Assembly: GCA_041398845.1 (NCBI GenBank)
Contig: JAWKTZ010000010.1
Location: forward strand, 189,758 to 253,757
Direction: 5' to 3'
DNA: 64,000 bases
Origin: Planctomycetaceae bacterium
GTDB taxonomy: Bacteria; Planctomycetota; Planctomycetia; Planctomycetales; Planctomycetaceae
The notes under the pieces were generated by a model. The model ran no database searches. It was given only the letters and a program-made list of their open reading frames with translations, and was not told the origin of the DNA. Shown here in pieces: positions 1 through 9,769 of the stretch (the first letter of the stretch is position 1; every line of letters starts with the position of its first letter). The position numbers and the translations under genes were made by a program.

Positions 1-1113
1 GACCAGCGCATCGAATGTCCTGACGGTCACCCGCTGGAAATTCACGTCATCGACAGTCAGGCCGAACAGTGGGCTCAATGTTTGACGGGGCGCATTCAGT
101 TTCTGGGCGATGTTTCGGGAATTCTGCCTCGCAATGTTCCAGCGTCGAAATGTGGGTTCATCGAAGCACGTGACTGGCATGGAATCGTCGGCGAAGGATT
201 CGATGCCGTGTTCATCTGTCTGGCGGACGAAGCTCTGGCGGTGACTCAGGCAACGCGGGTCGCCGATGCCATTTCCAGACGACAACAATTGAACGGCGGA
301 CGGAATAAGGTCATCCCGATTATCGTGCGCGTGCGTGAGGAAGAGTCGGGCTTTGGTCGACTGTTGTTGCAGAGATCCGCAGACGTTCAGGGCTGCATTC
401 GACCGGTGGGCCTGCAGGATCGCGTCTTTGATGTCATCGCTTCAATGCATCCGGTGGTGGAGATGCTGGCTCAGGTGTGTCATCAGGATTACCTGGGTCG
501 GCGGCAGGCTCAACTTCGCAACGCCACACCTCAGGGGGCTCAGAAGATTCTGCAGGACAAGGAACAGTCTCTGAAAAGCTGGTCCGGGCTGTCGGAACGT
601 CTTCGGGAATCCAATCGGGAACTCGTGCGCAGATTTCATGGCATGTTGGAAGTCCCGGACGAAACGGGACGCATCGTTCGTCGATTTCGCATGGAGTTCG
701 CTCCTGATGAAGTGATTGATCCGACGGTCGGCTATCAGCTTTCCGACGAAGAACTGCTGAGACTGGCCCGAATGGAACACGACAACTGGTATGCCACGCA
801 ATACAAAGCCGGCTGGCGTTACGGAGAACAGGATTCAGAGACGCCGCCGGTCGCCGGTCCGGCTGCGCTGTCACTGTCTGATCGCCTGCGACGGGCGGCG
901 GACGAACATCAGCGCTGGCTGTCGCAGCGGCGAGCCGACGGTCGACCGTATTCGGGACCTGTATCACTGCGACGCCCACGGCATGTGGTCTTCAATCCAA
1001 ACATGACAACATGGGACAACCTGAGCAGCGAGATGAAGGAGTTCGACTTTGGTATCATTCGTCGCATGCCGAGTGTACTGGCCAGAGCCGACTACAAACT
1101 GGTGGAAGTGTAA
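1..1113 (+). CDS. RyR-domain protein, 5' truncated by the window; probable TrkA-N/Rossmann-like region upstream of the RyR repeats
   Basis: Frame +1 is open from base 1 (DQRIECPDGHPLEIHVIDSQ...). RyR signatures LARMEHDNW..AGWRYG and NPNMTTWDNLSSEMKEFD, plus a degenerate first repeat LAQVCHQDY...WSGLSERLRESNR. Confidence 0.8.
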   Translation, partial: DQRIECPDGHPLEIHVIDSQAEQWAQCLTGRIQFLGDVSGILPRNVPASKCGFIEARDWHGIVGEGFDAVFICLADEALAVTQATRVADAISRRQQLNGGRNKVIPIIVRVREEESGFGRLLLQRSADVQGCIRPVGLQDRVFDVIASMHPVVEMLAQVCHQDYLGRRQAQLRNATPQGAQKILQDKEQSLKSWSGLSERLRESNRELVRRFHGMLEVPDETGRIVRRFRMEFAPDEVIDPTVGYQLSDEELLRLARMEHDNWYATQYKAGWRYGEQDSETPPVAGPAALSLSDRLRRAADEHQRWLSQRRADGRPYSGPVSLRRPRHVVFNPNMTTWDNLSSEMKEFDFGIIRRMPSVLARADYKLVEV

Positions 1114-1134: not shown

Positions 1135-2454
1135 ATGACGGATGTCTCCCCCTATGTGTTTGTCAGTTATTCTCGCGCCGACGCGGCGCGAGTGCGTGTG
1201 ATCGTGCAGTCGCTTGAAAACGCCGGCATTGCCGTGTGGCGTGATCGGGAGAGACTGCTGGCGGGAAACACATACGGAATACAGATCGTGCAGGCCATCG
1301 AACAGGCCAGCGTGCTGTTGCTGTTCTGTTCGCGAAACTCGTTTGCGTCAAAAAACGTACGCAACGAAGTCATTACTGCCTGGGATCGAGGCCGTCGCAT
1401 TTATCTGCCGGTCTGGATCGACCGGCCGACCGAAGTACCACGCGATGTGGCCTACTGGCTGGCCGGGTGTCAATGGCTGGATGCCTCCGGAGAAACCGAA
1501 ATTGAATGGCTGCCAGCGCTGCTCAACGCACTGGAAGTCTGCGGTGTGACACCGCAGGCCGGAGCGGCCGCAGGCACTGCGGCGAACGTGTTCCCATTGA
1601 ACAACCTGCGTCCATCGACGCAGCAGACTCCCGACACGGAACCGCTTGTCGCGATCGAATCGATACAGATTGCCGTTTCCGAACAGCAGCGCTGGGCTGA
1701 ACGCATGCAGACGCAACTGGACGTCGAACGTTGCGGGTTAACGTTTCGGCTGATTCCTCCCGGACAGTTTCTGATGGGCGCTCCGTTGTCCGACCGGCGT
1801 GCCGAAGCGGACGAAAAGCCTGCGCTTCCCGTAACTATTCGGCATCCGTTGTATGTCATGAGCGCGCCGGTGACGTGCGGTTTTGTTCGAAAGTTGCTGA
1901 CTGCGTTTCCGGGCGACCGCAAATGGACCGACTGGTATCGTCGAACCGAAGAACTGCCGGATGGCTGCCCGGCAGTTGAAATCGGTCTGGAACACGTCAT
2001 GGATTTCTGTGCCGTAATGGCTCAACAGCACGGACTGCCGCTGCGTCTGCCAACAGAAGCTGAGTGGGAATATTTTTCCCGAGCCGGAGCTGGTGGACTC
2101 TATTGGTGGGGCGACCAGTTTTGCAAAGAGAACGTTGTGTGCGGAAGCAGGCATCCTGAGCCGTCATCCGTTCGCCGAGCCAACGCATGGGGACTGCTGG
2201 ATGTGCTGGGCAACGTGGCCGAATGGACCAGCAGCGCGTACGACAGCCTGCAGTCGGGCGAAGCTCTTCGTGCGGCCATTGCAGACACGCTTGAGTCGCG
2301 GTATCGTGTGGTCCGTGGCGGAAGTTATCGCGAACGAAGTGGAGACGAACTGCGGTTGTCCCGTCGACTGCGAGTCGCAGCGGATGCACCAGCCCGTCAT
2401 ATCGGTTTCCGCCTTGTCGCCGATGCAGCCGACATGCCGGATCTGAATTCTTAA
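1135..2454 (+). CDS. TIR domain + FGE-sulfatase (SUMF1-like) domain fusion protein
   Basis: N-terminal VFVSYSRAD..VWRDRE..AIEQASVLLLFCSRNSFASKNVRNEV (TIR_2-like, Glu78). C-terminal FRLIPPGQFLMG, RLPTEAEWEY, NAWGLLDVLGNVAEW, RVVRGGSY, IGFRL. AGGA SD upstream. Confidence 0.9.
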   Translation: MTDVSPYVFVSYSRADAARVRVIVQSLENAGIAVWRDRERLLAGNTYGIQIVQAIEQASVLLLFCSRNSFASKNVRNEVITAWDRGRRIYLPVWIDRPTEVPRDVAYWLAGCQWLDASGETEIEWLPALLNALEVCGVTPQAGAAAGTAANVFPLNNLRPSTQQTPDTEPLVAIESIQIAVSEQQRWAERMQTQLDVERCGLTFRLIPPGQFLMGAPLSDRRAEADEKPALPVTIRHPLYVMSAPVTCGFVRKLLTAFPGDRKWTDWYRRTEELPDGCPAVEIGLEHVMDFCAVMAQQHGLPLRLPTEAEWEYFSRAGAGGLYWWGDQFCKENVVCGSRHPEPSSVRRANAWGLLDVLGNVAEWTSSAYDSLQSGEALRAAIADTLESRYRVVRGGSYRERSGDELRLSRRLRVAADAPARHIGFRLVADAADMPDLNS

Positions 2455-2483: not shown

Positions 2484-4025
2484 ATGTCCGCCGACGTCCC
2501 CAATGGAAACGACGATGACCTGTGGGACAGCTTCCAGGCCGCCTTTGGAGACGCCTTACCCGATCCGGTGAAACCTCCACCGGACACTCATGCCAGCCTG
2601 CCCGGACACTCGGGGGTCAATGCGAACCGTTCCGAGCCCCCAGCCGATATCAGCGCGGCCAACCTGAGTGCGGCCGACATTTCAACTCTTATGAGCCAGT
2701 TGCAGCAACTGGCTCCGCGCTCGCCTTCAGCCGATTTGTCGCCACCGATCACCTCACGTCACGACACGTTGCCGCCGCCGGGTGCCAGCGCCGGACTTTC
2801 CGGTTTTCCGCTGCCGGCAGCGCAGAGCCTTCCGTCGGCTCCGGTTTTCGCTGTGCCGGATATGCGCGCGGTGTCAGCCACGGGACGCGCTGGCACGGTC
2901 CGTCTGGAACAGCGCGGTGGGACGTCTCTGAAGGTAAATCACAAGGCCGTCGTTGCGCTGCGGTTGATGACGATGTCGCGAGCCGTGAAGTATCGGCTGA
3001 GTCTGCAATCTGATCTGCTGGAAGAATCGATGATTTTCTGCGGATCATGTCCGGACCCGGGTGTTTATAACGTTGGTTCCCTGCGTTTCGTTCCGGTGGT
3101 TGCCGGAGCCGAAGAGATTCGAGTGCAACTGGTCATTCTGAATGACAATGACATTCCGATCGACTGTCTGACCGGAAGCTTTGTGGTGCAGGTGGAATCG
3201 GATCAGAGCCACTCAATCCATGCGGGTGGAGATGTGATCGTGATGGGAGGACGACCGGGTGGGCTGTTGCCGAACATCGGTTCGGTGCCGACCGACGTCT
3301 GGAATGATGTCGAGCTGGTTGCGGATGCTTCCTGGGGGGCTCGCACTGCAAGGCTCAAACCGCAGCCTCCTGAAGATCAACCGACAGAACTTCGGATTGC
3401 CGCAGACTTTCGTGCCGCCACCGGTGCGATGTATGTGGGACGTGCCGACGGATCGTTCCGGTGTTATGCCGTGTCAGCCGGGCTGAGAGCTTCCATCGGA
3501 CGCGGCGGAGCGGACGATGTGTGCTGGTGGATTCGTCCCGTGCCTGATCGTGACGGTCGGTTTTCCCGAATTTCGCGAAGGCACGTATCGATTGAACTGC
3601 GTGATCAGTATGCGTGGCTGACCGATCACAGTGCCAACGGAACACTTCTCAACGGAGTGAAACTGGCGACAGATGAAGCCACAGTGCTGGCCGATGGTGA
3701 CACCGTGGATGTTGCCGATGCAATCCGGTTTTCACTACATCTGTTCACCGGTAGTTCGGGCGTTTCCGCTGTGGAACTGGTCAGAAACGACAGCCTGAGC
3801 GATCAGTTGCGGCTGCTGCTGGTAAAGCCGGGTTGCCCACATCGAATATCGTGGGGGAACGAATCTTTCTGGGTCGCATGGTCGAAAAACGAGTGTCTGC
3901 AATTGAATCGCGGCGGTGATGCCTGGGACAATCTGAAGACGGGCGATGAACAGCAGGTCAATGATTCCGCAACGCTGTCATGGCATCAGGTGATGGCTGC
4001 GATCGATCAGGATCAGTTGTTTTGA
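2484..4025 (+). CDS. FHA domain protein with Pro-rich N-terminus and central beta-rich domain
   Basis: FHA motifs SIGR, ISRRH, DHSANGTLLNG, LADGDTV. GGAG SD upstream. Confidence 0.85.
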   Translation: MSADVPNGNDDDLWDSFQAAFGDALPDPVKPPPDTHASLPGHSGVNANRSEPPADISAANLSAADISTLMSQLQQLAPRSPSADLSPPITSRHDTLPPPGASAGLSGFPLPAAQSLPSAPVFAVPDMRAVSATGRAGTVRLEQRGGTSLKVNHKAVVALRLMTMSRAVKYRLSLQSDLLEESMIFCGSCPDPGVYNVGSLRFVPVVAGAEEIRVQLVILNDNDIPIDCLTGSFVVQVESDQSHSIHAGGDVIVMGGRPGGLLPNIGSVPTDVWNDVELVADASWGARTARLKPQPPEDQPTELRIAADFRAATGAMYVGRADGSFRCYAVSAGLRASIGRGGADDVCWWIRPVPDRDGRFSRISRRHVSIELRDQYAWLTDHSANGTLLNGVKLATDEATVLADGDTVDVADAIRFSLHLFTGSSGVSAVELVRNDSLSDQLRLLLVKPGCPHRISWGNESFWVAWSKNECLQLNRGGDAWDNLKTGDEQQVNDSATLSWHQVMAAIDQDQLF

Positions 4026-4079
4026 GAATCCTTGAGCCATCATCAGGCACAGGCCGGTTGTAAACAGAAGGTGGAGATC

Positions 4080-6131
4080 ATGGCGGCTGACGGAAACGAA
4101 CGACATTCCGGGGATTCCGAAGACCTGTTTCGAGATTTTGATGAGTCACTGCGGGCGCTGGCAAATCCCGGCCAGTCGCTTGAAAAACTCGGCGACCGGT
4201 TTATCAGTCAGGAGACCGGCTTTCAGCCAATTAAGCCGGAGGAAAAATTCGATCCTGACGAAGAAATCCGCGACTACCTGGGGTTTCTGCATCGTGCAAA
4301 GGAAGCTCGCGACCTGCATCGATCAGCACAATTGATTACTGCTCGAGTGACCGATCAGCTTCCCAACGGATTGCTGCCGGAAATCAAGAGACTGGTTGTT
4401 CCTGCGGATTCCACAATGTTCCTGTTTTCGGAACGGCACGCTCCGCTGCAGCTCGATCCGGGGAAGGAATACGAAGTCTCACGACTTGGTCTGGGCGGCG
4501 GAGTCGGTCAGTCGTTTGAAGCGTTCAGTGAGAACGGGGGCAGTGGAGCATTCCAGGAACGCAGCGGTGTGCTGATTTGCGAGATTCCTCGACGCTCACT
4601 GCCGTTCACCATCACTCTGCCGGACTACACGGGCTTTTATCCGCCCGGTACCGGAGATCAGTTCACTGGACTTGTGGCGTCGCTGTCCAATGCCACGGAG
4701 CCGGAAGTACGCAGGCAGCATGCGTCTGAGCTGGCCAAGGGACTGGGGCGCGTCTTCGAAGAGTCCCGTTTGAAAACGCAGGAAGGAATCTGTACCGGCG
4801 TGCGGGTTCAGGTGGAAATCGGTGTCCGGGATCCTCAGCGCCTGGTCGAAACATACTGCCGAAGTTATGCTCGCCAGTTGGAGAAGAAATACAAAGACCT
4901 TGATGCAAAGTTACACAGGCGGCCGATTGATCCGGGGCTGGCCAACAAGCTTCGGTTTCCGCTCAAACTGCTGTCTCAGGTTGTGTTCGGAGCCCGCCAG
5001 CAAAACGGAGTTCCGTTGCGGCCGGTGACACTGGCTCATGTCTACAAGCGCATTCGTCTGGAAATCGCAGACGCGCTGCGCGACGCCATTCGTCAGGAAA
5101 CCGCTCGACAACTCATCGAAGAACCGGCGCGCGTGCGCGAACGAGTGACCGATGCTCTGAACCAGCATGTGCAGCATTCGCTGGAACTGTACGGAGCAGA
5201 GATTCGTCGAGTGGTCAGTGTGGAATGTGTGTCGCCGGAGTACAACCGCATGATTATCGACCGCGGTCGACTCAGAATGCGGGATGAGAAACTGGACGAC
5301 GACCGGAATCGTTCGCGTATTGAAAACGAAGAACTCAGAATTGAGTCGCAGCGTTTTCAGGATCAGGTGCGGCACCAGAACGAACGCTCTCAGTATTCCA
5401 CCAGCCAGCAGGCCGAAACCGCTCGCCAGCAGCTTCACGAACTGGGCACCACCAATCAGGTTCGCGATACGGTCGAAGCAGAAGCCATGCGACGTCGGTT
5501 GCAGCGAGAAGCCGAAGAGGCCGCTCACAATCGTGAAGAACAGCGTCGCAATGCCGAAGTGGAAGCCGAGGTGCGGCGTCAGCTTGAACTGTCTGCTCTG
5601 GAAATCGAAGCCAGACGAATGGAACTTCAGCAGAAGAAGATGGAAGCAGCCGTTCATCTGAACCTGCAGTACGAATCCGGGCAGCATCAGTTGCAGCAGG
5701 AGGCTCTGGATCGCGAACACCAGCGTCAGATTGAACGGGTCCGACTGGCATTTAACCAGCAGATGGAAGCCAACTCGGCCGAGATGAATAACCGCATCAG
5801 CTTTCTGGAAAAGTTTGCCGGACTGAGCGGCGAACTGGACGAGAACAAACTGCTGGTGATGTCACTGGCGAGCAATCCGCAACTGGCCAAACCGTACGTC
5901 GAAGCAACTCGAGCTCGGGGTAAGGATGAACTGATGCAGAAGATGGAGGAATTCAAGAATCAGCTTGTGGCCGTTCACGGGCAGGAAGACAAACTGGTGC
6001 ATCAGTTGTGGCACGAAGGAATTCGGCAGATCGGTCAGGTGCTTGGCAAGCAGGCTCAGAAACCTGCCACCAACGTCTTCACGGACAACGTCAGGCTGGA
6101 CAACCCATCGCCAACGCACTCAGAGGATTGA
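4080..6131 (+). CDS. SPFH/Band-7-like domain protein with long C-terminal coiled coil
   Basis: RLVVPADSTMFLF..LDPGKEYEV resembles the Band_7 N-terminus. IRLEIADALRDAIRQETARQL...LELYGAEIRRVVSVECVSPEY resembles the SPFH core. About 200 aa E/Q/R-rich helix follows. ATG at 4080 has a GGAG SD (ORF track start is TTG 4032). Confidence 0.7.
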   Translation: MAADGNERHSGDSEDLFRDFDESLRALANPGQSLEKLGDRFISQETGFQPIKPEEKFDPDEEIRDYLGFLHRAKEARDLHRSAQLITARVTDQLPNGLLPEIKRLVVPADSTMFLFSERHAPLQLDPGKEYEVSRLGLGGGVGQSFEAFSENGGSGAFQERSGVLICEIPRRSLPFTITLPDYTGFYPPGTGDQFTGLVASLSNATEPEVRRQHASELAKGLGRVFEESRLKTQEGICTGVRVQVEIGVRDPQRLVETYCRSYARQLEKKYKDLDAKLHRRPIDPGLANKLRFPLKLLSQVVFGARQQNGVPLRPVTLAHVYKRIRLEIADALRDAIRQETARQLIEEPARVRERVTDALNQHVQHSLELYGAEIRRVVSVECVSPEYNRMIIDRGRLRMRDEKLDDDRNRSRIENEELRIESQRFQDQVRHQNERSQYSTSQQAETARQQLHELGTTNQVRDTVEAEAMRRRLQREAEEAAHNREEQRRNAEVEAEVRRQLELSALEIEARRMELQQKKMEAAVHLNLQYESGQHQLQQEALDREHQRQIERVRLAFNQQMEANSAEMNNRISFLEKFAGLSGELDENKLLVMSLASNPQLAKPYVEATRARGKDELMQKMEEFKNQLVAVHGQEDKLVHQLWHEGIRQIGQVLGKQAQKPATNVFTDNVRLDNPSPTHSED

Positions 6132-6174
6132 CCAGCACGACGTGCGTGGACAAAAGGTATCGGAAAGCTGCCTC

Positions 6175-8505
6175 ATGTCAGACTCCAACCATCAAAAGAA
6201 AACATCTTTGCCACGACCGCAGGGACTCGGCCCACCCGGACGCAGACTGCCAAAGCCCGGATCGCTGCAAGGTACCGACAGTCAGATCGACGGCCCGACT
6301 CGCACAGACGAAGCGTCGTCTGATGCTCGACCAGCCGGGAATCCGTCAATCGGTCGCCCGGATCGATATTCAGCCACAGTGACCAGCGAAGGACCGGAGG
6401 CTGCGCCGACCGGTCAGACGGTCGATGACGGCCGCTACCAGGTGCTCAGACTGATTGCTCGCGGCGGCATGGGCGAAGTCTGGCTGGCTCAGGATCTGAA
6501 ACTTCGCAAACGCTATGTGGCGATCAAGAGACTCACGGCCGAGTCACTGAACAATCCGAAACTGCGGCAACGCTTCGAAGCGGAAGCGGAATCCATGGCC
6601 CGGCTGACTCATCAGTATGTCATTCGGGTGTTCGACATCGGCTGTGACAGCCAGGGCCCATTCATCTGTATGGAATATGTATCCGGCCCGCCTGCAACGT
6701 TGGCCGACTGGCCGGCCGATCTGCCCGCACCGCCGCTCACGCTCCAGGAGTATGTCGAGCGAAAAGTGAAGCTGCCGCTCGCAGATGCCGTCACCTTGTT
6801 GCGTCAGCTTTGCGGAGCCGCCATGGAAGCGCACGCTCTGGGCATTGTTCATCGCGACATCAAGCCGGCCAACGTGCTGCTGGATACCAAACTGTCGCCG
6901 CGACTCATCGATTTCGGACTGGCGCGCGATCTGCAGCCGGAAGAAAGTCAGCACACCGCCGCCGGTGCTCAGATGCTGACGATTGGCTACGGAGCTCCCG
7001 AGCAGGAAACCGATGCCGGCGACGCCGACGAACGAGCGGACGTGTATGCTCTGGGAGCCGTGTTGTGGTTTCTGGTGTCCGGACAGAATCCCCGGTTTTA
7101 CAGAAACAGCGATGCTCCACCGGAATTGAAAACGATTCTGACGTCGGCTCTGATGCATGATCGTGCCGCCAGAACTCAGACGGTCGCCGATCTGGACCGC
7201 GCTTTGGCCGTCCTGCAGAACGGTCGCCGATCTGCCTTCGGCGAAGATGCCGAGCATTCCGATGGTGCCGGCGAACGATTGAACCAACTGTCTCAATGCC
7301 TTGAAGGCGAACGCAGGGCCGGTGTTTGCCCCTTTTGCCGTCACGTTCACGAACCAATTCCCCGGTCCGCAAAGGAACGCCAGTACTGTGCCGGATGCGG
7401 GACATCTCTCTGGATGAAATGCGGACGCTGTGCCGCCGGGAAATCGACGATCAGCCTGACCAAAGTTCGTCTGATTCCCATCTGGGAACGCTTCTGCAGC
7501 AAATGCGGCGACGATTTGCTGAGCCCGGTTGTCGAACACCTGAGCAGCGCTGCTCGTGCCATGGCAGAAGCTCATTCCGTCGTCAGTGCGGATACCAATC
7601 GAGCTCATCAACTGGCTGCGGCTGCCAGTGAATCGCTGGAATGTCTGGTGCGCCAGTGTGGCACCGACTTTTCTGCCGGACTCGTGGGACAGCGCTGTGC
7701 AGATGCGGAGAAGGAAATACAGGGGCTCCGAGCCAACGCAACAGTCAAAGCCGCTGCCAACGAAGAAGACACATGGAAAGCGGCGTTGGTGGCCAACAGC
7801 AAAGAAGCATTCCAGAATTTTCTGAAATCCTTTCCTGCAGGGGTTCATGCCGAAGACGCACAGCAACGTGTTGACGTGATGACTCTGGCCGATGATATTC
7901 GCAATCGCCTGCAGGCCAAAGCGTACGAAACCCTGCTGCCTGACGTTGGCCGGCTGATCAGTATGAGCACCGCAGCGAAGCAGAAGTGGTCTGACGATAA
8001 GCTGTCACAGTTACTCAAAAAGGATCATTCTGTCGAATCCTGCATGGCCTATCTGAAGCTGTATCCGGAAGGAAAATTGTCCCGGCAGGCCAGGGCCATT
8101 GTGTCTCCTGAACTGCGAAAGATGCTGCTGGCGAAAATGTCGGACCCGGTGGCTCGAGCAGAATACCTCGCATTCCGCTCGCCAGCGCAACAGGAAGAAG
8201 ATGAAGCTCGGGCTTTCAACAGCACGCTGTGGCTGTGGGCAACAGTCGGACTGTTGATTGCACTTCCCCTGGGAGGCTACGGGCTGATGAACGACGAACA
8301 GGCCAAGGTGATTTCCGGCATGGTGACAGCAGGCGGCGGCCTGGTCTGGGGAATTCTGATGTCGTTTCTCAGCAGCAAACGAGCAACCCAGGGCCCCTTG
8401 CCACTGCTGAATTACCTGTTGCCATTTTTTGCCCTCTCAAAGGCCTCGCCGGATCAAACGCCCCCCGAATCCACGTCGGACACAGAACCAGCCGACGTCG
8501 GATAG
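6175..8505 (+). CDS. Hanks-type Ser/Thr protein kinase with double zinc ribbon and C-terminal TM helices
   Basis: ARGGMGEV, VAIK, HRDIKPAN, DFGLA, GYGAPE. Four CxxC (CPFC, CAGC, CGRC, CSKC). Hydrophobic C-terminal segments. ATG 6175 preferred because the 5965 start overlaps the upstream gene. Confidence 0.92.
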   Translation: MSDSNHQKKTSLPRPQGLGPPGRRLPKPGSLQGTDSQIDGPTRTDEASSDARPAGNPSIGRPDRYSATVTSEGPEAAPTGQTVDDGRYQVLRLIARGGMGEVWLAQDLKLRKRYVAIKRLTAESLNNPKLRQRFEAEAESMARLTHQYVIRVFDIGCDSQGPFICMEYVSGPPATLADWPADLPAPPLTLQEYVERKVKLPLADAVTLLRQLCGAAMEAHALGIVHRDIKPANVLLDTKLSPRLIDFGLARDLQPEESQHTAAGAQMLTIGYGAPEQETDAGDADERADVYALGAVLWFLVSGQNPRFYRNSDAPPELKTILTSALMHDRAARTQTVADLDRALAVLQNGRRSAFGEDAEHSDGAGERLNQLSQCLEGERRAGVCPFCRHVHEPIPRSAKERQYCAGCGTSLWMKCGRCAAGKSTISLTKVRLIPIWERFCSKCGDDLLSPVVEHLSSAARAMAEAHSVVSADTNRAHQLAAAASESLECLVRQCGTDFSAGLVGQRCADAEKEIQGLRANATVKAAANEEDTWKAALVANSKEAFQNFLKSFPAGVHAEDAQQRVDVMTLADDIRNRLQAKAYETLLPDVGRLISMSTAAKQKWSDDKLSQLLKKDHSVESCMAYLKLYPEGKLSRQARAIVSPELRKMLLAKMSDPVARAEYLAFRSPAQQEEDEARAFNSTLWLWATVGLLIALPLGGYGLMNDEQAKVISGMVTAGGGLVWGILMSFLSSKRATQGPLPLLNYLLPFFALSKASPDQTPPESTSDTEPADVG

Positions 8506-8623
8506 CGCCAAATCGCTGATCCGCACCGGTATGGCATACAGCCCACCACACGATGATGTGGCGTTTACCTGCCGCTGATTGAGGGATTCATGCAGCGGAT
8601 CAAGCCACTGGAGGCGTCGCCGA

Positions 8624-9769
8624 CTACGTGATTGTGGACTGTTGTTCAATCAACGCGTCCAGTTCAGCCTTCAGCTTCGGCAGGATTTCGTGGTAGCTGT
8701 AGGCACCCAGACTTTCCGGGCCCTTCTTCAGGTTCACGTGATTTGGGCCGCACCACAAGCCGAGATCGGCGTCGTCCGTCTCACCGGGCCCGTTGACGCG
8801 GCAGCCCATCACGGCGATCGTGATCGCGTGATCTTCGGCGTAGCGGGTCATTTCTTTGACCTGTTGAGCCAGCTCCACAAAGGCTTCGTTTTCCACGCGC
8901 GAACAACTGGGGCAGCTAATGATGTTCAGCGTCTTCAGGCCGTAGTCCACCACCGAGCGAACTCGACCGTTGGCGATGTCATCCAGAATTTTGCGACCGG
9001 CTTCGATCTCTTCGTGCTTGCGGTTGTTCGGAACGGTCAGCGACACGCGAATCGTGTCGCCGATACCGCGGCTGATGAGCTGTTCGAACGCGATCCGCGT
9101 CTTGATGACGCCGTCCGGAGGCATGCCGGCTTCGGTCACTCCCAGGTGCAGAGGTACGTCCGGGCGTTTTTCGGCGAAGCGTTTGTTGACTTCAATCACC
9201 TTCTGCGGATCGGAATCCTTCAGCGACACGCAGTACCGCATGAAGTCATAATCGTCCAGTAAACGACAATGATCCCACGCGCTTTCGAGCATCGGGGAAA
9301 TCGAATCGTCTGCGGCGTACTTTGCTTTCTTGTCCGGGTCAACAGATCCGCAGTTAACGCCGACTCGAATGGCGCAATCGTGTTCCCTGGCCACATCCGC
9401 GATGTAGCGAACTTTGTCCTCCCACGGTTTCTCGCGTTCATGATGGTACAGGTGTCCGGGGTTGTACCGCAGCTTGTCTACATATGGAGCAATCACTTCG
9501 GCCAGTCGATAATTTTCCTGCAGGTCGACGGAAAAGTTGCCGTGTACCTGGCTGCGAATTTCAATCAGCGCTTCGGCGTCTTTCTGACTGTCGATGGCAA
9601 CGCGAATAACGTCGGCACCGGCGTTCAACAGATCCTGAATCTGAGCAACCGTGGCGTCGATGTCCTGAGTTCGCGTTGCCGTCATGCTCTGCACGGCAAT
9701 CGGCGAATCAGCTCCGATGGTCACGCTGCCAATCCGTACCGGTCGAGTTGGATTTCGTTCGATGGTCAC
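8624..9769 (-). CDS. ispG: (E)-4-hydroxy-3-methylbut-2-enyl-diphosphate synthase
   Basis: [60 protein letters not shown]. Confidence 0.97.

What the first reader, a model, noticed from the sequence alone, without database searches (positions are those of the whole stretch)
1135..2454. TIR with intact catalytic Glu fused to a non-catalytic FGE/CLec-fold domain
Seen: SKNVRNEV places Glu78 at the canonical TIR NADase position. The FGE domain ends RVVRGGSYRERSGDELRLSRR, with no Cys pair as used by true formylglycine-generating enzymes. No signal peptide, so cytoplasmic. Established: FGE-type CLec folds act as binding modules and are common DGR targets. Inference: a cytoplasmic ligand sensor directly coupled to a NAD+-consuming TIR, like a pattern-recognition receptor.
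Basis: partly seen in the sequence, partly recalled or inferred. Interest (0 to 1): 0.65.

Follow-up and report, generated by a model that had tools for sequence, protein, structure and literature searches.

The report
TIR–lectin-fold protein in a signalling island
The gene really encodes a cytoplasmic NAD-cleaving-type TIR domain fused to an enzyme-dead FGE/lectin-fold domain, but it is not a lone or hypermutating receptor: it is one part of a rare, horizontally acquired six-gene island that pairs it with a kinase/FHA/SPFH module and with ryanodine-receptor-type domains recently shown to bind TIR-made signals.

Summary
ORF 1135-2454 (439 aa) has a TIR_2 domain (E 8e-22) and an FGE-sulfatase domain (E 5e-34). 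E78 is invariant and sits at the catalytic spacing. There is no Cys in residues 337-439, and no signal peptide or TM helix.

The DGR idea fails: the genome holds no template repeat, and the C-terminal "variable-region" stretch is the most conserved part of the protein (68% vs 51% overall). TIR/effector–FGS "intracellular lectin sensors" were already proposed by Kaur et al. (2020, 2021).

What is new is the context. The gene heads a conserved four-gene cassette: [TIR, kinase or DUF4062-like]–FGE, then an FHA protein, a soluble SPFH/coiled-coil protein, and a Zn-ribbon Ser/Thr kinase. I found the cassette in about nine Planctomycetota loci. Its SPFH marker has only 52 representative clusters among 1.84 billion proteins.

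In this genome the cassette forms one 10-kb insertion together with a 96-aa RyR protein and a 2TM–TrkA_N–RyR protein. A same-genus genome has the empty site. Both RyR proteins keep the H/W/H/D pocket that phage RyDEP and RyR-Tad use to bind or cleave 2'/3'cADPR.

My best model is a phospho-regulated, TIR-signalling conflict system. No biochemistry was done.

The parts
1..1113 (+). 3' part (last 370 aa) of a 723-aa channel-like membrane protein with the layout 2 TM helices, TrkA_N/RCK, RyR. The gene starts 1,059 nt upstream of the window at G000:C10:188699 (= L010:10942). A 96-aa stand-alone RyR gene lies 65 bp further upstream (L010:10586-10876), outside the window.
   Evidence: Pfam RyR 3e-9 and TrkA_N 2e-5. 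TM helices at aa 11-29 and 110-128. The C-terminal RyR unit has EHQRW...H(+25)...D. The small RyR protein matches Pfam RyR at 7e-37 and has H32/W35/H57/D74.
1135..2454 (+). TIR-FGE gene (439 aa), the subject of the finding.
1156..1494 (+). TIR_2 domain (aa 8-120). The fold continues to about aa 138 with helix alphaE.
   Evidence: Pfam 7.9e-22. PADLOC best matches are the TIRs of SAVED-TIR (5.9e-13) and TIR-APAZ. AF2 secondary structure betaA-alphaE.
1366..1368 (+). Codon of E78, the putative catalytic glutamate. N74 (1354-1356) replaces the usual Trp.
1549..1662 (+). Ser/Thr/Pro/Ala-rich linker (aa 139-176), disordered and poorly conserved. It is a candidate phosphorylation region (inference).
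   Evidence: pLDDT <50 at aa 147-163. Mean pairwise identity 0.17.
1750..2418 (+). FGE-sulfatase / C-type-lectin-fold domain (aa 206-428) without the Cys pair. It is preceded by a helix at aa 177-190 that AF2 predicts and that stays alignable in the DUF4062-like variant P0007, although its sequence is poorly conserved among the five orthologs (0.20).
   Evidence: Pfam 4.6e-34. Foldseek to EgtB/ToxD/PvdO/FGE/TvpA. No Cys in aa 337-439. The C-terminal 48 aa are the most conserved region.
2484..4025 (+). FHA-domain protein (513 aa): disordered N-terminus, a beta-rich middle part, FHA at aa 338-409 with GR...SRRH...NG, and a conserved C-terminal domain.
   Evidence: Pfam FHA 5e-10. 42% identical over its full length to the gene after the ortholog in L007. 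28% over 386 aa to the Phycisphaerales cassette protein.
4032..6131 (+). Soluble SPFH-like protein with a coiled coil of about 200 aa ('g3', 699 aa; a possible ATG start at 4080). It is the most conserved marker of the cassette.
   Evidence: No Pfam hit for this copy, but one homolog hits Band_7 at 2.7e-4. AF2 plus Foldseek: the top hits are flotillin, stomatin, HflK/C, prohibitin and major vault protein at prob >=0.96. 57% identical to the L007 copy.
6172..8505 (+). Ser/Thr protein kinase (777 aa) with VAIK/HRD/DFG/APE intact, four CxxC motifs (two Zn ribbons) and two C-terminal TM helices.
   Evidence: Pfam Pkinase 1e-31; motifs and TM helices.
8506..8623 (.). Right-hand junction of the ~10-kb insertion, up to the convergent core gene ispG (8624-9769, minus strand).
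   Evidence: Own C10:188197-198393 (10,196 bp) corresponds to 170 bp between the GDSL-lipase and ispG orthologs of same-genus genome G005.

Best explanation
ORF 1135-2454 encodes a soluble cytoplasmic protein. An N-terminal TIR domain is joined by a disordered linker to a non-enzymatic FGE/C-type-lectin-fold domain.

Shown:
- It is the effector-bearing first gene of a conserved four-gene cassette: X-FGE, FHA protein, soluble SPFH/coiled-coil protein, then a Zn-ribbon Ser/Thr kinase.
- The FGE domain and the three partner genes are constant. The N-terminal domain of gene 1 is exchangeable: TIR in six Planctomycetaceae loci, a DUF4062-like domain in one lineage, and a protein kinase in two others.
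- In this genome the cassette arrived as one ~10-kb insertion together with a 96-aa RyR-domain protein and a channel-like 2TM-TrkA_N-RyR protein.
- The gene is not a DGR target.

Inferred mechanism:
- The FGE domain is the recognition or docking module. It binds a conserved (not arms-race-variable) ligand or a cassette partner.
- The active kinase and the pThr-binding FHA protein, probably on an oligomeric SPFH scaffold, control clustering of the TIR domains. TIR domains need self-association to form an active site.
- The activated TIR cleaves NAD+ through E78 and probably makes an ADP-ribose-derived signal.
- The neighbouring RyR domains read or buffer that signal. The membrane 2TM-RCK-RyR protein is the likely downstream effector, and the small RyR protein is a sponge or off-switch.
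- The overall role is most likely a conflict (anti-phage or abortive-infection-type) system.
For: Domains and residues.

Cassette:
- TIR-FGE is followed by an FHA gene in the window, L006, L007, L009 and L025.
- The FHA proteins are 42% identical over their full length.
- The third gene is 57-73% identical and is followed by an STK in L023, L025, L027, L028, L029 and, with a truncated STK, L026.
- The apparent 'FGE-only' gene of L025 is a TIR-FGE split by a scaffold gap.
- In the FGE-domain tree, all cassette gene-1 domains form one clade (100/96 support). Its sister clade is made of TM-less kinase-FGE proteins.
- One of those, from a Phycisphaerales genome, sits in the same cassette: FHA protein at E 4e-38, g3 at hhalign 99.9%.
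- The kinase motifs and the FHA pThr-binding residues are intact.

Sporadic distribution and mobility:
- A full-length ortholog occurs in 1 of 80 relatives and in none of 18 same-genus genomes.
- g3 occurs in 0 of 400 other genomes sampled from the phylum, and in only 52 clusters at E<=1e-10 among 1.84e9 representatives.
- The cassette has different flanking genes in every locus.
- A same-genus genome has the empty site.

RyR link:
- The genome's only strong RyR hit and only significant TIR hit lie 2.3 kb apart.
- The trio of small RyR, TrkA_N(-RyR) and TIR recurs in L008 and L023.
- 4 of 20 other small-RyR loci in the family carry a TIR protein within 8 kb: TIR-kinase-FGE, TIR-NACHT, TIR-NB-ARC-TPR and x-TIR.
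- The small RyR proteins keep H, W(+3), H(+25) and D(+42). This is the spacing of the ligand and catalytic residues of RyDEP (H75/W78/H100/D117) and RyR-Tad (H129/W132/H154/D171), which cleave or bind 2'/3'cADPR (PMC13232231 and 10.64898/2026.06.04.730250).
Against:
- The Trp usually found four residues before the catalytic Glu is Asn. NADase competence is therefore not guaranteed.
- By sequence the TIR is closest to NAD-depleting effector TIRs (SAVED-TIR, SPARTA-type), not to ThsB.
- At least two TIR-FGE cassettes (L007+L029, L025) have no RyR gene within the sequence available. Many RyR modules have their own TIR or none detected. The RyR pair and the cassette may therefore be two separable modules that are merely co-resident.
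- No known defence genes lie in this island. PADLOC recognises only the generic kinase and TIR.
- STK/FHA/SPFH proteins are also typical of housekeeping envelope signalling.
- The ligand of the FGE domain is unknown.
- The cassette sample is small (about 9 loci), and most come from fragmentary metagenomic contigs.
Confidence: 0.55

Rival explanations
1. Stand-alone cytoplasmic pattern-recognition receptor. The FGE domain binds a phage or foreign molecule directly, the TIR domains cluster, and NAD+ is depleted (abortive infection). The neighbouring genes are functionally unrelated.
For: The two-domain architecture is sufficient in principle. FGS/FGE domains are published candidate sensors in STAND and other conflict proteins. 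The TIR resembles NAD-depleting effector TIRs.
Against: The FGE clade is invariably followed by the same three genes, across two classes of Planctomycetota, even when the TIR is replaced by a kinase or a DUF4062-like domain. The gaps between genes are 21-54 bp on one strand. The recognition surface is conserved rather than diversifying.
Confidence: 0.15
2. Non-immune physiological signalling. The cassette is an envelope, membrane-stress or developmental Ser/Thr-phosphorylation module (SPFH plus Zn-ribbon plus kinase). The TIR acts as a regulated NAD(P)-metabolising or purely scaffolding domain.
For: STK, FHA and SPFH/Zn-ribbon proteins are common in housekeeping signalling, and kinase-FGE fusions abound in Planctomycetota. 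There are no known defence genes and no integrase in the island. The FGE surface is conserved.
Against: The cassette is extremely sporadic: 0 of 18 same-genus genomes and 0 of 400 sampled in the phylum. It is an insertion with variable flanks. Its head domain is exchangeable. It co-occurs with TCAD9/TPR-S, TIR-NLR, CHAT, MoxR-vWA and Cas genes in related loci. These are all hallmarks of conflict systems rather than core physiology.
Confidence: 0.2
3. The FGE-like domain is a real enzyme of the SUMF1/EgtB/PvdO superfamily (as NCBI names the orthologs). It would modify a peptide or protein partner, for example the FHA or SPFH protein.
For: The best PDB sequence match is ToxD (1.4e-14). Fold matches include EgtB, PvdO, CalU17 and FGE. 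Two invariant glutamates (E400, E405) lie roughly where the FGE Cys pair would be (the position comes from recalled motif spacing and was not tested).
Against: There is no Cys pair. There is no DinB-like iron-binding domain of the kind EgtB and OvoA need. No NCBIfam enzyme model comes anywhere near its cut-off: the best score is 60 bits against a cut-off of 350. Many members of the fold (TvpA, PorK/GldK, DGR targets) are binding modules.
Confidence: 0.07
4. DGR-diversified receptor. The 3' end of the gene is a variable region rewritten from a template repeat elsewhere in the genome.
For: FGE/CLec folds are the commonest DGR targets. The genome has five reverse-transcriptase genes.
Against: There is no template-like match to any part of the gene in a 99.97%-complete genome. 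There are no adenine-biased repeat pairs near any RT. The C-terminus is the most conserved region among orthologs.
Confidence: 0.02

Closest known systems
FGS (FGE-sulfatase/C-type-lectin fold) 'intracellular invader-sensing' domains of prokaryotic conflict systems (Kaur, Burroughs, Iyer, Aravind 2020 eLife PMC7159879; 2021 eLife PMC8195603); also FGE-sulfatase sensors of defence STANDs (Nature 2026, PMC13581612)
   Same: A C-terminal FGS domain with an effector domain placed N-terminal to it, which is the 'strict syntax' described by those authors. TIR is among the listed effector partners. The location is cytoplasmic. The proposed role is recognition rather than catalysis.
   Different: Those systems are built around NTPases (MoxR-vWA, STAND, GTPases) and are often DGR-diversified. 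Here there is no NTPase and no DGR, and the FGS surface is conserved. The fixed partners are an FHA protein, an SPFH protein and a Ser/Thr kinase, none of which is mentioned with FGS in those papers.
Thoeris-type TIR signalling defence (ThsB plus an effector with a signal-binding domain; types I-XI, Yirmiya et al. 2025 preprint 10.64898/2025.12.03.692087). The nearest case is type X: TIR plus a predicted ion-channel effector ThsK, signal unknown.
   Same: A TIR protein with the catalytic Glu is encoded next to proteins that carry a small-molecule-binding domain, one of them a channel-like membrane protein. The distribution is sporadic and island-like.
   Different: The TIR is fused to an FGE domain and embedded in a kinase/FHA/SPFH cassette. 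The candidate signal-binding domain is RyR (PF02026), which that preprint does not mention (0 occurrences of RyR, TrkA or FGE). No defence phenotype or signal has been measured here.
Phage RyR-domain proteins RyDEP (glycosidase for 2'/3'cADPR; PMC13232231) and RyR-Tad (gcADPR sponge; 10.64898/2026.06.04.730250)
   Same: The 96-aa RyR protein upstream of the window has 254 phage tblastn matches. It keeps the H-x-x-W, H(+25), D(+42) pocket with identical spacing.
   Different: Those are viral counter-defence proteins. Here the RyR domains are host-encoded, lie in the same island as the TIR, and one is fused to a 2TM-RCK module. That implies a receptor, effector or self-regulatory role rather than immune evasion.
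Membrane-spanning TIR-TM-FGE proteins of Alphaproteobacteria (about 560 aa; e.g. Hyphomonas, Parvularculaceae; P0023-P0041)
   Same: The same Pfam pair, TIR_2 plus FGE-sulfatase, in the same order.
   Different: They have a strong TM helix between the domains (KD 2.3-2.8), so the FGE part is extracytoplasmic. They form a separate FGE clade (99/99). They are not followed by FHA/SPFH/STK genes. The fusion therefore arose independently.
True formylglycine-generating enzymes (SUMF1/FGE) and DGR variable proteins such as TvpA
   Same: The fold (Foldseek E about 1e-12 to 1y1h, 2q17, 2y3c).
   Different: No Cu-binding Cys pair and no secretion signal, so it is not an FGE. No template repeat and no hypervariability, so it is not a DGR target.

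Membership tests
TIR-domain NAD+ glycohydrolase/cyclase (Pfam TIR_2, STIR clan) | TIR (flavodoxin-like) fold recognised by the family profile | tested here: met
   TIR_2 E 7.9e-22, 78.5 bits against a cut-off of 28. AF2 gives the betaA-alphaA...betaE-alphaE order with pLDDT mostly >80.
TIR-domain NAD+ glycohydrolase/cyclase (Pfam TIR_2, STIR clan) | Catalytic glutamate in helix alphaC | tested here: met
   E78 lies 12 residues after the betaC-terminal Ser, the same spacing as the Glu in L6 and the AbTIR-like chain 7uxr as printed (that this Glu is catalytic is from my own knowledge). It falls in the predicted helix 73-84 and is invariant in 5 of 5 orthologs. No residue-level structural superposition was possible.
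TIR-domain NAD+ glycohydrolase/cyclase (Pfam TIR_2, STIR clan) | Aromatic Trp four residues before the Glu (WxxxE) lining the NAD pocket in many NADase TIRs | tested here: not met
   The position is N74, invariant in the orthologs. This feature is common but not universal (own knowledge), so it lowers certainty about activity without excluding it.
TIR-domain NAD+ glycohydrolase/cyclase (Pfam TIR_2, STIR clan) | NAD+ cleavage that depends on oligomerisation | not testable with these tools
   Needs enzyme assays.
Formylglycine-generating enzyme (SUMF1/FGE) | FGE-sulfatase fold | tested here: met
   Pfam 4.6e-34. Foldseek to human and bacterial FGEs at E about 1e-12 to 1e-13.
Formylglycine-generating enzyme (SUMF1/FGE) | Pair of Cu(I)-binding catalytic cysteines near the C-terminus | tested here: not met
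   No Cys in aa 337-439. This is the region that aligns to the C-terminal 83 residues of human FGE chains.
DGR variable protein (CLec/FGE-type target) | Cognate template repeat with adenine-specific mismatches, plus an RT/Avd | tested here: not met
   No TR-like match genome-wide. The RTs are all on contig C6 and have no A-biased repeat pairs.
DGR variable protein (CLec/FGE-type target) | Hypervariable C-terminal region among close homologs | tested here: not met
   aa 385-432 have a mean pairwise identity of 0.68, the highest of any region.
Thoeris-like TIR signalling system | A TIR gene adjacent to an effector carrying a domain that binds the TIR product | tested here: inconclusive
   RyR-domain genes lie 21 bp and about 2.3 kb upstream in the same insertion, with conserved H/W/H/D pocket residues. 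TIR-RyR adjacency recurs. Binding itself is untested, and some cassettes lack RyR genes.
Thoeris-like TIR signalling system | Protection against phage that depends on the TIR catalytic Glu | not testable with these tools
   Needs phage challenge in a laboratory host.
NTPase-centred FGS conflict systems (Kaur et al. 2020/2021) | A core NTPase (MoxR-vWA ternary system, STAND, or GTPase) encoded with or fused to the FGS protein | tested here: not met
   The six island genes contain no NTPase domain.

The most novel reading that the evidence does not exclude
The island is an undescribed TIR-signalling immune system with three features.
(i) The signal-making TIR is switched on through a cytoplasmic lectin-fold (FGE) module, under Ser/Thr-kinase/FHA control, on an SPFH cage.
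(ii) Its NAD-derived product is read by ryanodine-receptor-type domains, including a channel-like 2TM-RCK-RyR effector.
(iii) A small RyR protein acts as a built-in sponge or glycosidase off-switch.
This would be a bacterial counterpart, and a possible evolutionary root, of the animal cADPR-to-ryanodine-receptor axis. It would also be the first defence system gated by an SPFH/phospho-threonine scaffold.
Probability: 0.25. Interest if true: 0.85.

Novelty: new variant of a known kind. Interest (0 to 1): 0.6.

Why it matters
The TIR-FGE fusion alone adds little. The architecture and the 'intracellular lectin sensor plus TIR' idea are already published.

The context is what matters.
- It defines a rare, mobile four-gene cassette (FGE, FHA, SPFH, STK) with a swappable output domain. 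I found no paper, PADLOC model or NCBIfam model describing it.
- It places host-encoded RyR domains beside the TIR. Only in 2026 were RyR domains shown to bind or cleave TIR-made cADPR isomers.

If the model holds, it gives three things:
- a testable case of phosphorylation-gated TIR activation in bacteria;
- a role for the very common but unexplained kinase-FGE/FGE proteins of Planctomycetota;
- a tractable bacterial system for asking whether RyR Repeat12-type domains are receptors for TIR products.

Tried and rejected
- **DGR target: rejected.** There is no template repeat, no A-biased repeats near the five RTs, and the C-terminus is conserved.
- **An 'FGE-only' natural variant (P0006, L025): rejected.** A TIR coding stretch (47% identical) lies just upstream, across a run of Ns, so this is a scaffold-gap artefact.
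- **DUF4062-like head of P0007 as a divergent TIR: not supported.** Neither blastp nor hhalign detects it; only the FGE part aligns. Left open.
- **A false negative of my own.** In one search the window proteins seemed unrelated to the neighbours of the orthologs. The script had picked an alignment row as 'window'. Direct comparisons corrected this.
- **tblastn with TIR probes was too insensitive** around RyR genes. I replaced it with a home-built TIR HMM plus Pfam confirmation. The 4/20 count is therefore a lower bound.
- **Promoter and terminator scans:** nothing above shuffled expectation.
- **Residue-level check of E400/E405 against the FGE Cys pair: not achieved.** HMMER never printed an FGE alignment, so the equivalence rests on recalled motif spacing.
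- **Fold search of the whole model** returned only FGE-fold hits, so the position of E78 could not be checked by superposition.
- **NCBIfam and PADLOC:** no specific family for any of the six proteins.
Full report
**1. The observation**

The window (G000 contig C10:189758-253757; an 8.56-Mb, 99.97%-complete Planctomycetaceae-type genome) has a 439-aa ORF at 1135-2454 (+).
- Pfam finds TIR_2 at aa 8-120 (E 7.9e-22) and FGE-sulfatase at aa 206-428 (E 4.6e-34).
- 'SKNVRNEV' is aa 72-79, and the E78 codon is 1366-1368.
- Counting from the Ser that ends strand betaC (S66), E78 is at +12. The Glu in plant L6 (SKWCLMEL) and in the AbTIR-like chain 7uxr (KNWTEYEL) is at the same offset in the alignments; that this Glu is the catalytic one is from my own knowledge. 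The AF2 model (pLDDT 88) puts E78 in helix 73-84.
- E78 is invariant in five orthologs. So is N74, which replaces the usual Trp of the WxxxE motif.
- The FGE-like domain has no Cys after residue 336, so the Cu-binding Cys pair is absent.
- No 19-residue window exceeds a Kyte-Doolittle mean of 1.38, so there is no signal peptide or TM helix.
- Foldseek matches the C-terminal domain to EgtB, ToxD, PvdO, FGE, CalU17, TvpA and PorK.

**2. Not a DGR target**

- A sensitive blastn of the gene against its own genome gives only the self-hit and noise. The best match to the 3' end is 45 bp at 73%.
- All five RVT_1 matches are on contig C6. The repeats near them show no adenine-specific mismatch spectrum.
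- Among five orthologs (51-53% identical to the query; 0.51 mean pairwise identity), mean pairwise identity by region is: TIR 0.62, linker 0.17, N-terminal third of the FGE domain 0.40, middle 0.63, and the last 48 residues 0.68. DGR variable regions lie in those last residues.

The recognition surface is therefore conserved, not diversifying.

**3. How common is the architecture?**

TIR_2 plus FGE-sulfatase proteins are numerous in the 5.8-billion-protein collection, alongside kinase-FGE, caspase-FGE and other fusions. They are not one family.
- In a tree of FGE domains, the alphaproteobacterial TIR-FGE proteins (about 560 aa) form their own clade (99/99).
- Those proteins carry a strong TM helix between the two domains (KD 2.3-2.8). 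They look like membrane receptors and have unrelated neighbours.
- The query belongs to a small clade of soluble proteins (100/96). Its sister clade consists of TM-less kinase-FGE proteins.

The literature already describes the 'FGS' domain as a lectin-fold module that always sits C-terminal to effector domains, TIR included. It proposes FGS as an intracellular invader sensor (PMC7159879, PMC8195603). TIR-bearing DGR targets (PMC10907252) and FGE-sulfatase sensors in defence STANDs (PMC13581612) are also published.

**4. The conserved cassette**

Wherever enough sequence is available, a gene of the query's FGE clade is followed on the same strand by three genes:
- an FHA protein;
- a protein of about 650-700 aa with no Pfam match ('g3');
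- a Ser/Thr kinase of about 750-790 aa.

The loci are:
- the window (2484-4025, 4032-6131, 6172-8505);
- L007+L029, L006+L023, L009 and L025, all with TIR-FGE;
- L027/L028, with a DUF4062-like head.

Supporting comparisons:
- The FHA proteins are 42% identical end to end. g3 is 57-73% identical.
- The apparent FGE-only gene in L025 is a TIR-FGE interrupted by a scaffold gap.
- In L024 a kinase-FGE from another FGE clade occupies the first position.
- In a Phycisphaerales genome a sister-clade kinase-FGE is followed by a Zn-ribbon-FHA protein (E 4e-38 to the window's FHA protein), a g3 homolog (hhalign 99.9%) and a Zn-ribbon kinase. That locus is flanked by MoxR-AAA/vWA and Cas genes.

The partner proteins:
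- g3 folds as an SPFH domain with a coiled coil of about 200 residues. All confident Foldseek hits are flotillin, stomatin, HflK/C, prohibitin or vault proteins. One homolog reaches Band_7 at 2.7e-4. g3 has no TM helix.
- The kinase has VAIK, HRD, DFG and APE, four CxxC motifs and two C-terminal TM helices. The FHA domain has the GR/SxxH/NG pThr-binding residues.

So the FGE domain, FHA, SPFH and STK are constant, and the head domain of gene 1 is exchangeable. That is the pattern of a core machine with swappable effectors.

**5. Rarity and mobility**

- The full-length ortholog is present in 1 of 80 relatives and in none of the 18 other same-genus genomes.
- g3 is absent from 400 other genomes sampled across the phylum. 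It has only 68, 52 and 17 representative clusters at E<=1e-3, 1e-10 and 1e-30 among 1.84 billion proteins.
- The flanking genes differ in every locus.
- In same-genus genome G005 the GDSL-lipase ortholog (72% identical) and ispG (85%) are 170 bp apart. In this genome they are 10,196 bp apart.

The insertion holds exactly six co-directional genes and no integrase:
1. RyR (96 aa);
2. 2TM-TrkA_N-RyR (723 aa);
3. TIR-FGE;
4. FHA protein;
5. SPFH protein;
6. STK.

**6. The RyR connection**

The gene that runs into the window's 5' end (1-1113) is the 723-aa membrane protein. It has two TM helices about 80 residues apart, an RCK/TrkA_N domain and C-terminal RyR units. Just upstream of it lies the 96-aa RyR gene (Pfam 7e-37).

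Evidence that RyR and TIR genes go together:
- In the whole genome there is one strong PF02026 hit and one significant TIR hit, 2.3 kb apart.
- The trio of small RyR, TrkA_N(-RyR) and TIR recurs in L008. It recurs in L023 with a second TIR protein and a TCAD9/TPR-S protein.
- RyR genes occur in 47 of 251 genomes of the family.
- Of 20 further small-RyR loci, 7 have a TrkA_N-RyR-like gene and 9 a TCAD9/TPR-S gene.
- At least 4 of those 20 have a TIR protein within 8 kb: TIR-kinase-TM-FGE directly downstream, TIR-NACHT, TIR-NB-ARC-TPR and x-TIR. With about one or two TIR genes per 7-Mb genome, I expect well under 1% by chance (rough estimate, not computed).

Two 2026 preprints show what phage RyR-domain proteins do:
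- RyDEP cleaves 2'/3'cADPR through H75 and D117, with W78 and H100 also binding the ligand (PMC13232231).
- RyR-Tad binds 3'cADPR with a Kd of 43 nM through H129/W132, H154 and D171 (10.64898/2026.06.04.730250).

The small RyR proteins of the window genome, L008 and L023 have H, W(+3), H(+25) and D(+42) at the same spacing. By eye, the last RyR unit of the 723-aa protein has EHQRW, H(+25) and the Asp after a 4-residue insertion (sequence). This is direct sequence evidence for a conserved nucleotide pocket. That the ligand is a product of this TIR is inference.

**7. Model and caveats**

I commit to the following model.

Shown:
- the architecture;
- the cassette;
- the insertion;
- absence of a DGR;
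- the conserved catalytic and pocket residues.

Inferred:
- The FGE domain is a recognition or docking module for a conserved ligand or cassette partner.
- STK and FHA phospho-signalling on an SPFH scaffold controls TIR clustering.
- The TIR makes an ADPR-type signal.
- The RyR proteins sense or buffer that signal, with the channel-like protein as effector.
- The system serves conflict or defence.

Caveats:
- N74 replaces the pocket Trp.
- The TIR is most similar to NAD-depleting effector TIRs.
- Two TIR-FGE cassettes lack RyR genes in the sequence available, so the RyR pair and the cassette may be separable modules.
- No known defence gene lies in the island.
- No expression or biochemical data were available.

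Notes from other agents of this scan report TIR plus TM-TrkA_N-RyR pairs in many other genomes. I treat these as leads. They are consistent with my own counts but are not independent proof.

Thoeris type X (TIR plus a predicted ion channel, signal unknown) may be related. That preprint mentions neither RyR nor TrkA.

**8. Verdict**

The sensor-plus-TIR idea is plausible and already published. The DGR link and the stand-alone-receptor reading are not supported.
- The protein is a new variant of a known kind (TIR-FGS conflict proteins, TIR signalling systems). It sits in a previously undescribed FGE-FHA-SPFH-STK cassette joined to a RyR module.
- Interest is moderate to high because of the context, not because of the fusion itself.

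Noticed in passing
L035:1164-4649 (genome G519, contig C582): A small RyR gene is followed directly by a 1,064-aa protein with the order TIR_2, Pkinase, TM helix (KD 1.83 at aa 505), FGE-sulfatase, 3-keto-disaccharide-hydrolase domain. This single polypeptide joins TIR, kinase and FGE, here with the FGE part extracytoplasmic.
   Followed up: partly
L023:5135-11027 (MAG JAGQPY01, contig 159): Directly after the cassette's kinase, on the opposite strand, lie four genes: a TCAD9+TPR-S protein, a 329-aa protein with a weak SLOG-like N-terminus and TIR_2, a 102-aa RyR protein, and a 727-aa TrkA_N-RyR protein. This is a second TIR/RyR module beside the TIR-FGE cassette.
   Followed up: partly
L032, L033, L034, L036, L037, L039, L040, L046, L047: In 9 of 20 Planctomycetaceae loci, the small RyR gene lies within about 8 kb of a TCAD9/TPR-S ('ternary complex associated domain 9') protein, directly adjacent in most. 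I found no report of this recurrent pairing in the papers read.
   Followed up: partly
L024:2180-8415: A variant cassette (kinase-FGE, FHA, g3, two more kinase-FGE genes) is preceded by a CHAT protease and a 719-aa protein with Zn ribbon, Band_7/SPFH and Zn ribbon. This is a second, different SPFH protein in the same locus.
   Followed up: no
window 2332-2349 (aa 400-405 of the TIR-FGE protein): E400 and E405 are invariant in the cassette clade (D/E in the DUF4062-like variant). By recalled motif spacing they lie about where the two catalytic cysteines of true FGEs sit, within an Arg-rich stretch (11 Arg in 47 residues). This may be a conserved metal- or ligand-binding site.
   Followed up: partly
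window 2499-2546 and 4113-4160: The FHA protein and the SPFH protein both begin with a conserved acidic-aromatic motif before a disordered stretch: GNDDDLWDSFQAAFG and DSEDLFRDFDESLRAL. The motifs are conserved in L007. They could be short docking motifs.
   Followed up: no
G000:C6:1064600-1070260 (outside the window): Next to an RVT_1-containing 929-aa open frame there are extensive internal repeats of about 100-400 bp at 68-83% identity, on both sides of the RT. They show no adenine bias. I did not interpret them.
   Followed up: no
L054:8001-9707 and P0023, P0025, P0028, P0118: Alphaproteobacterial TIR-TM-FGE proteins look like single-pass receptors: a cytoplasmic TIR and a periplasmic FGE domain. 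This is an independent origin of the same Pfam pair.
   Followed up: partly
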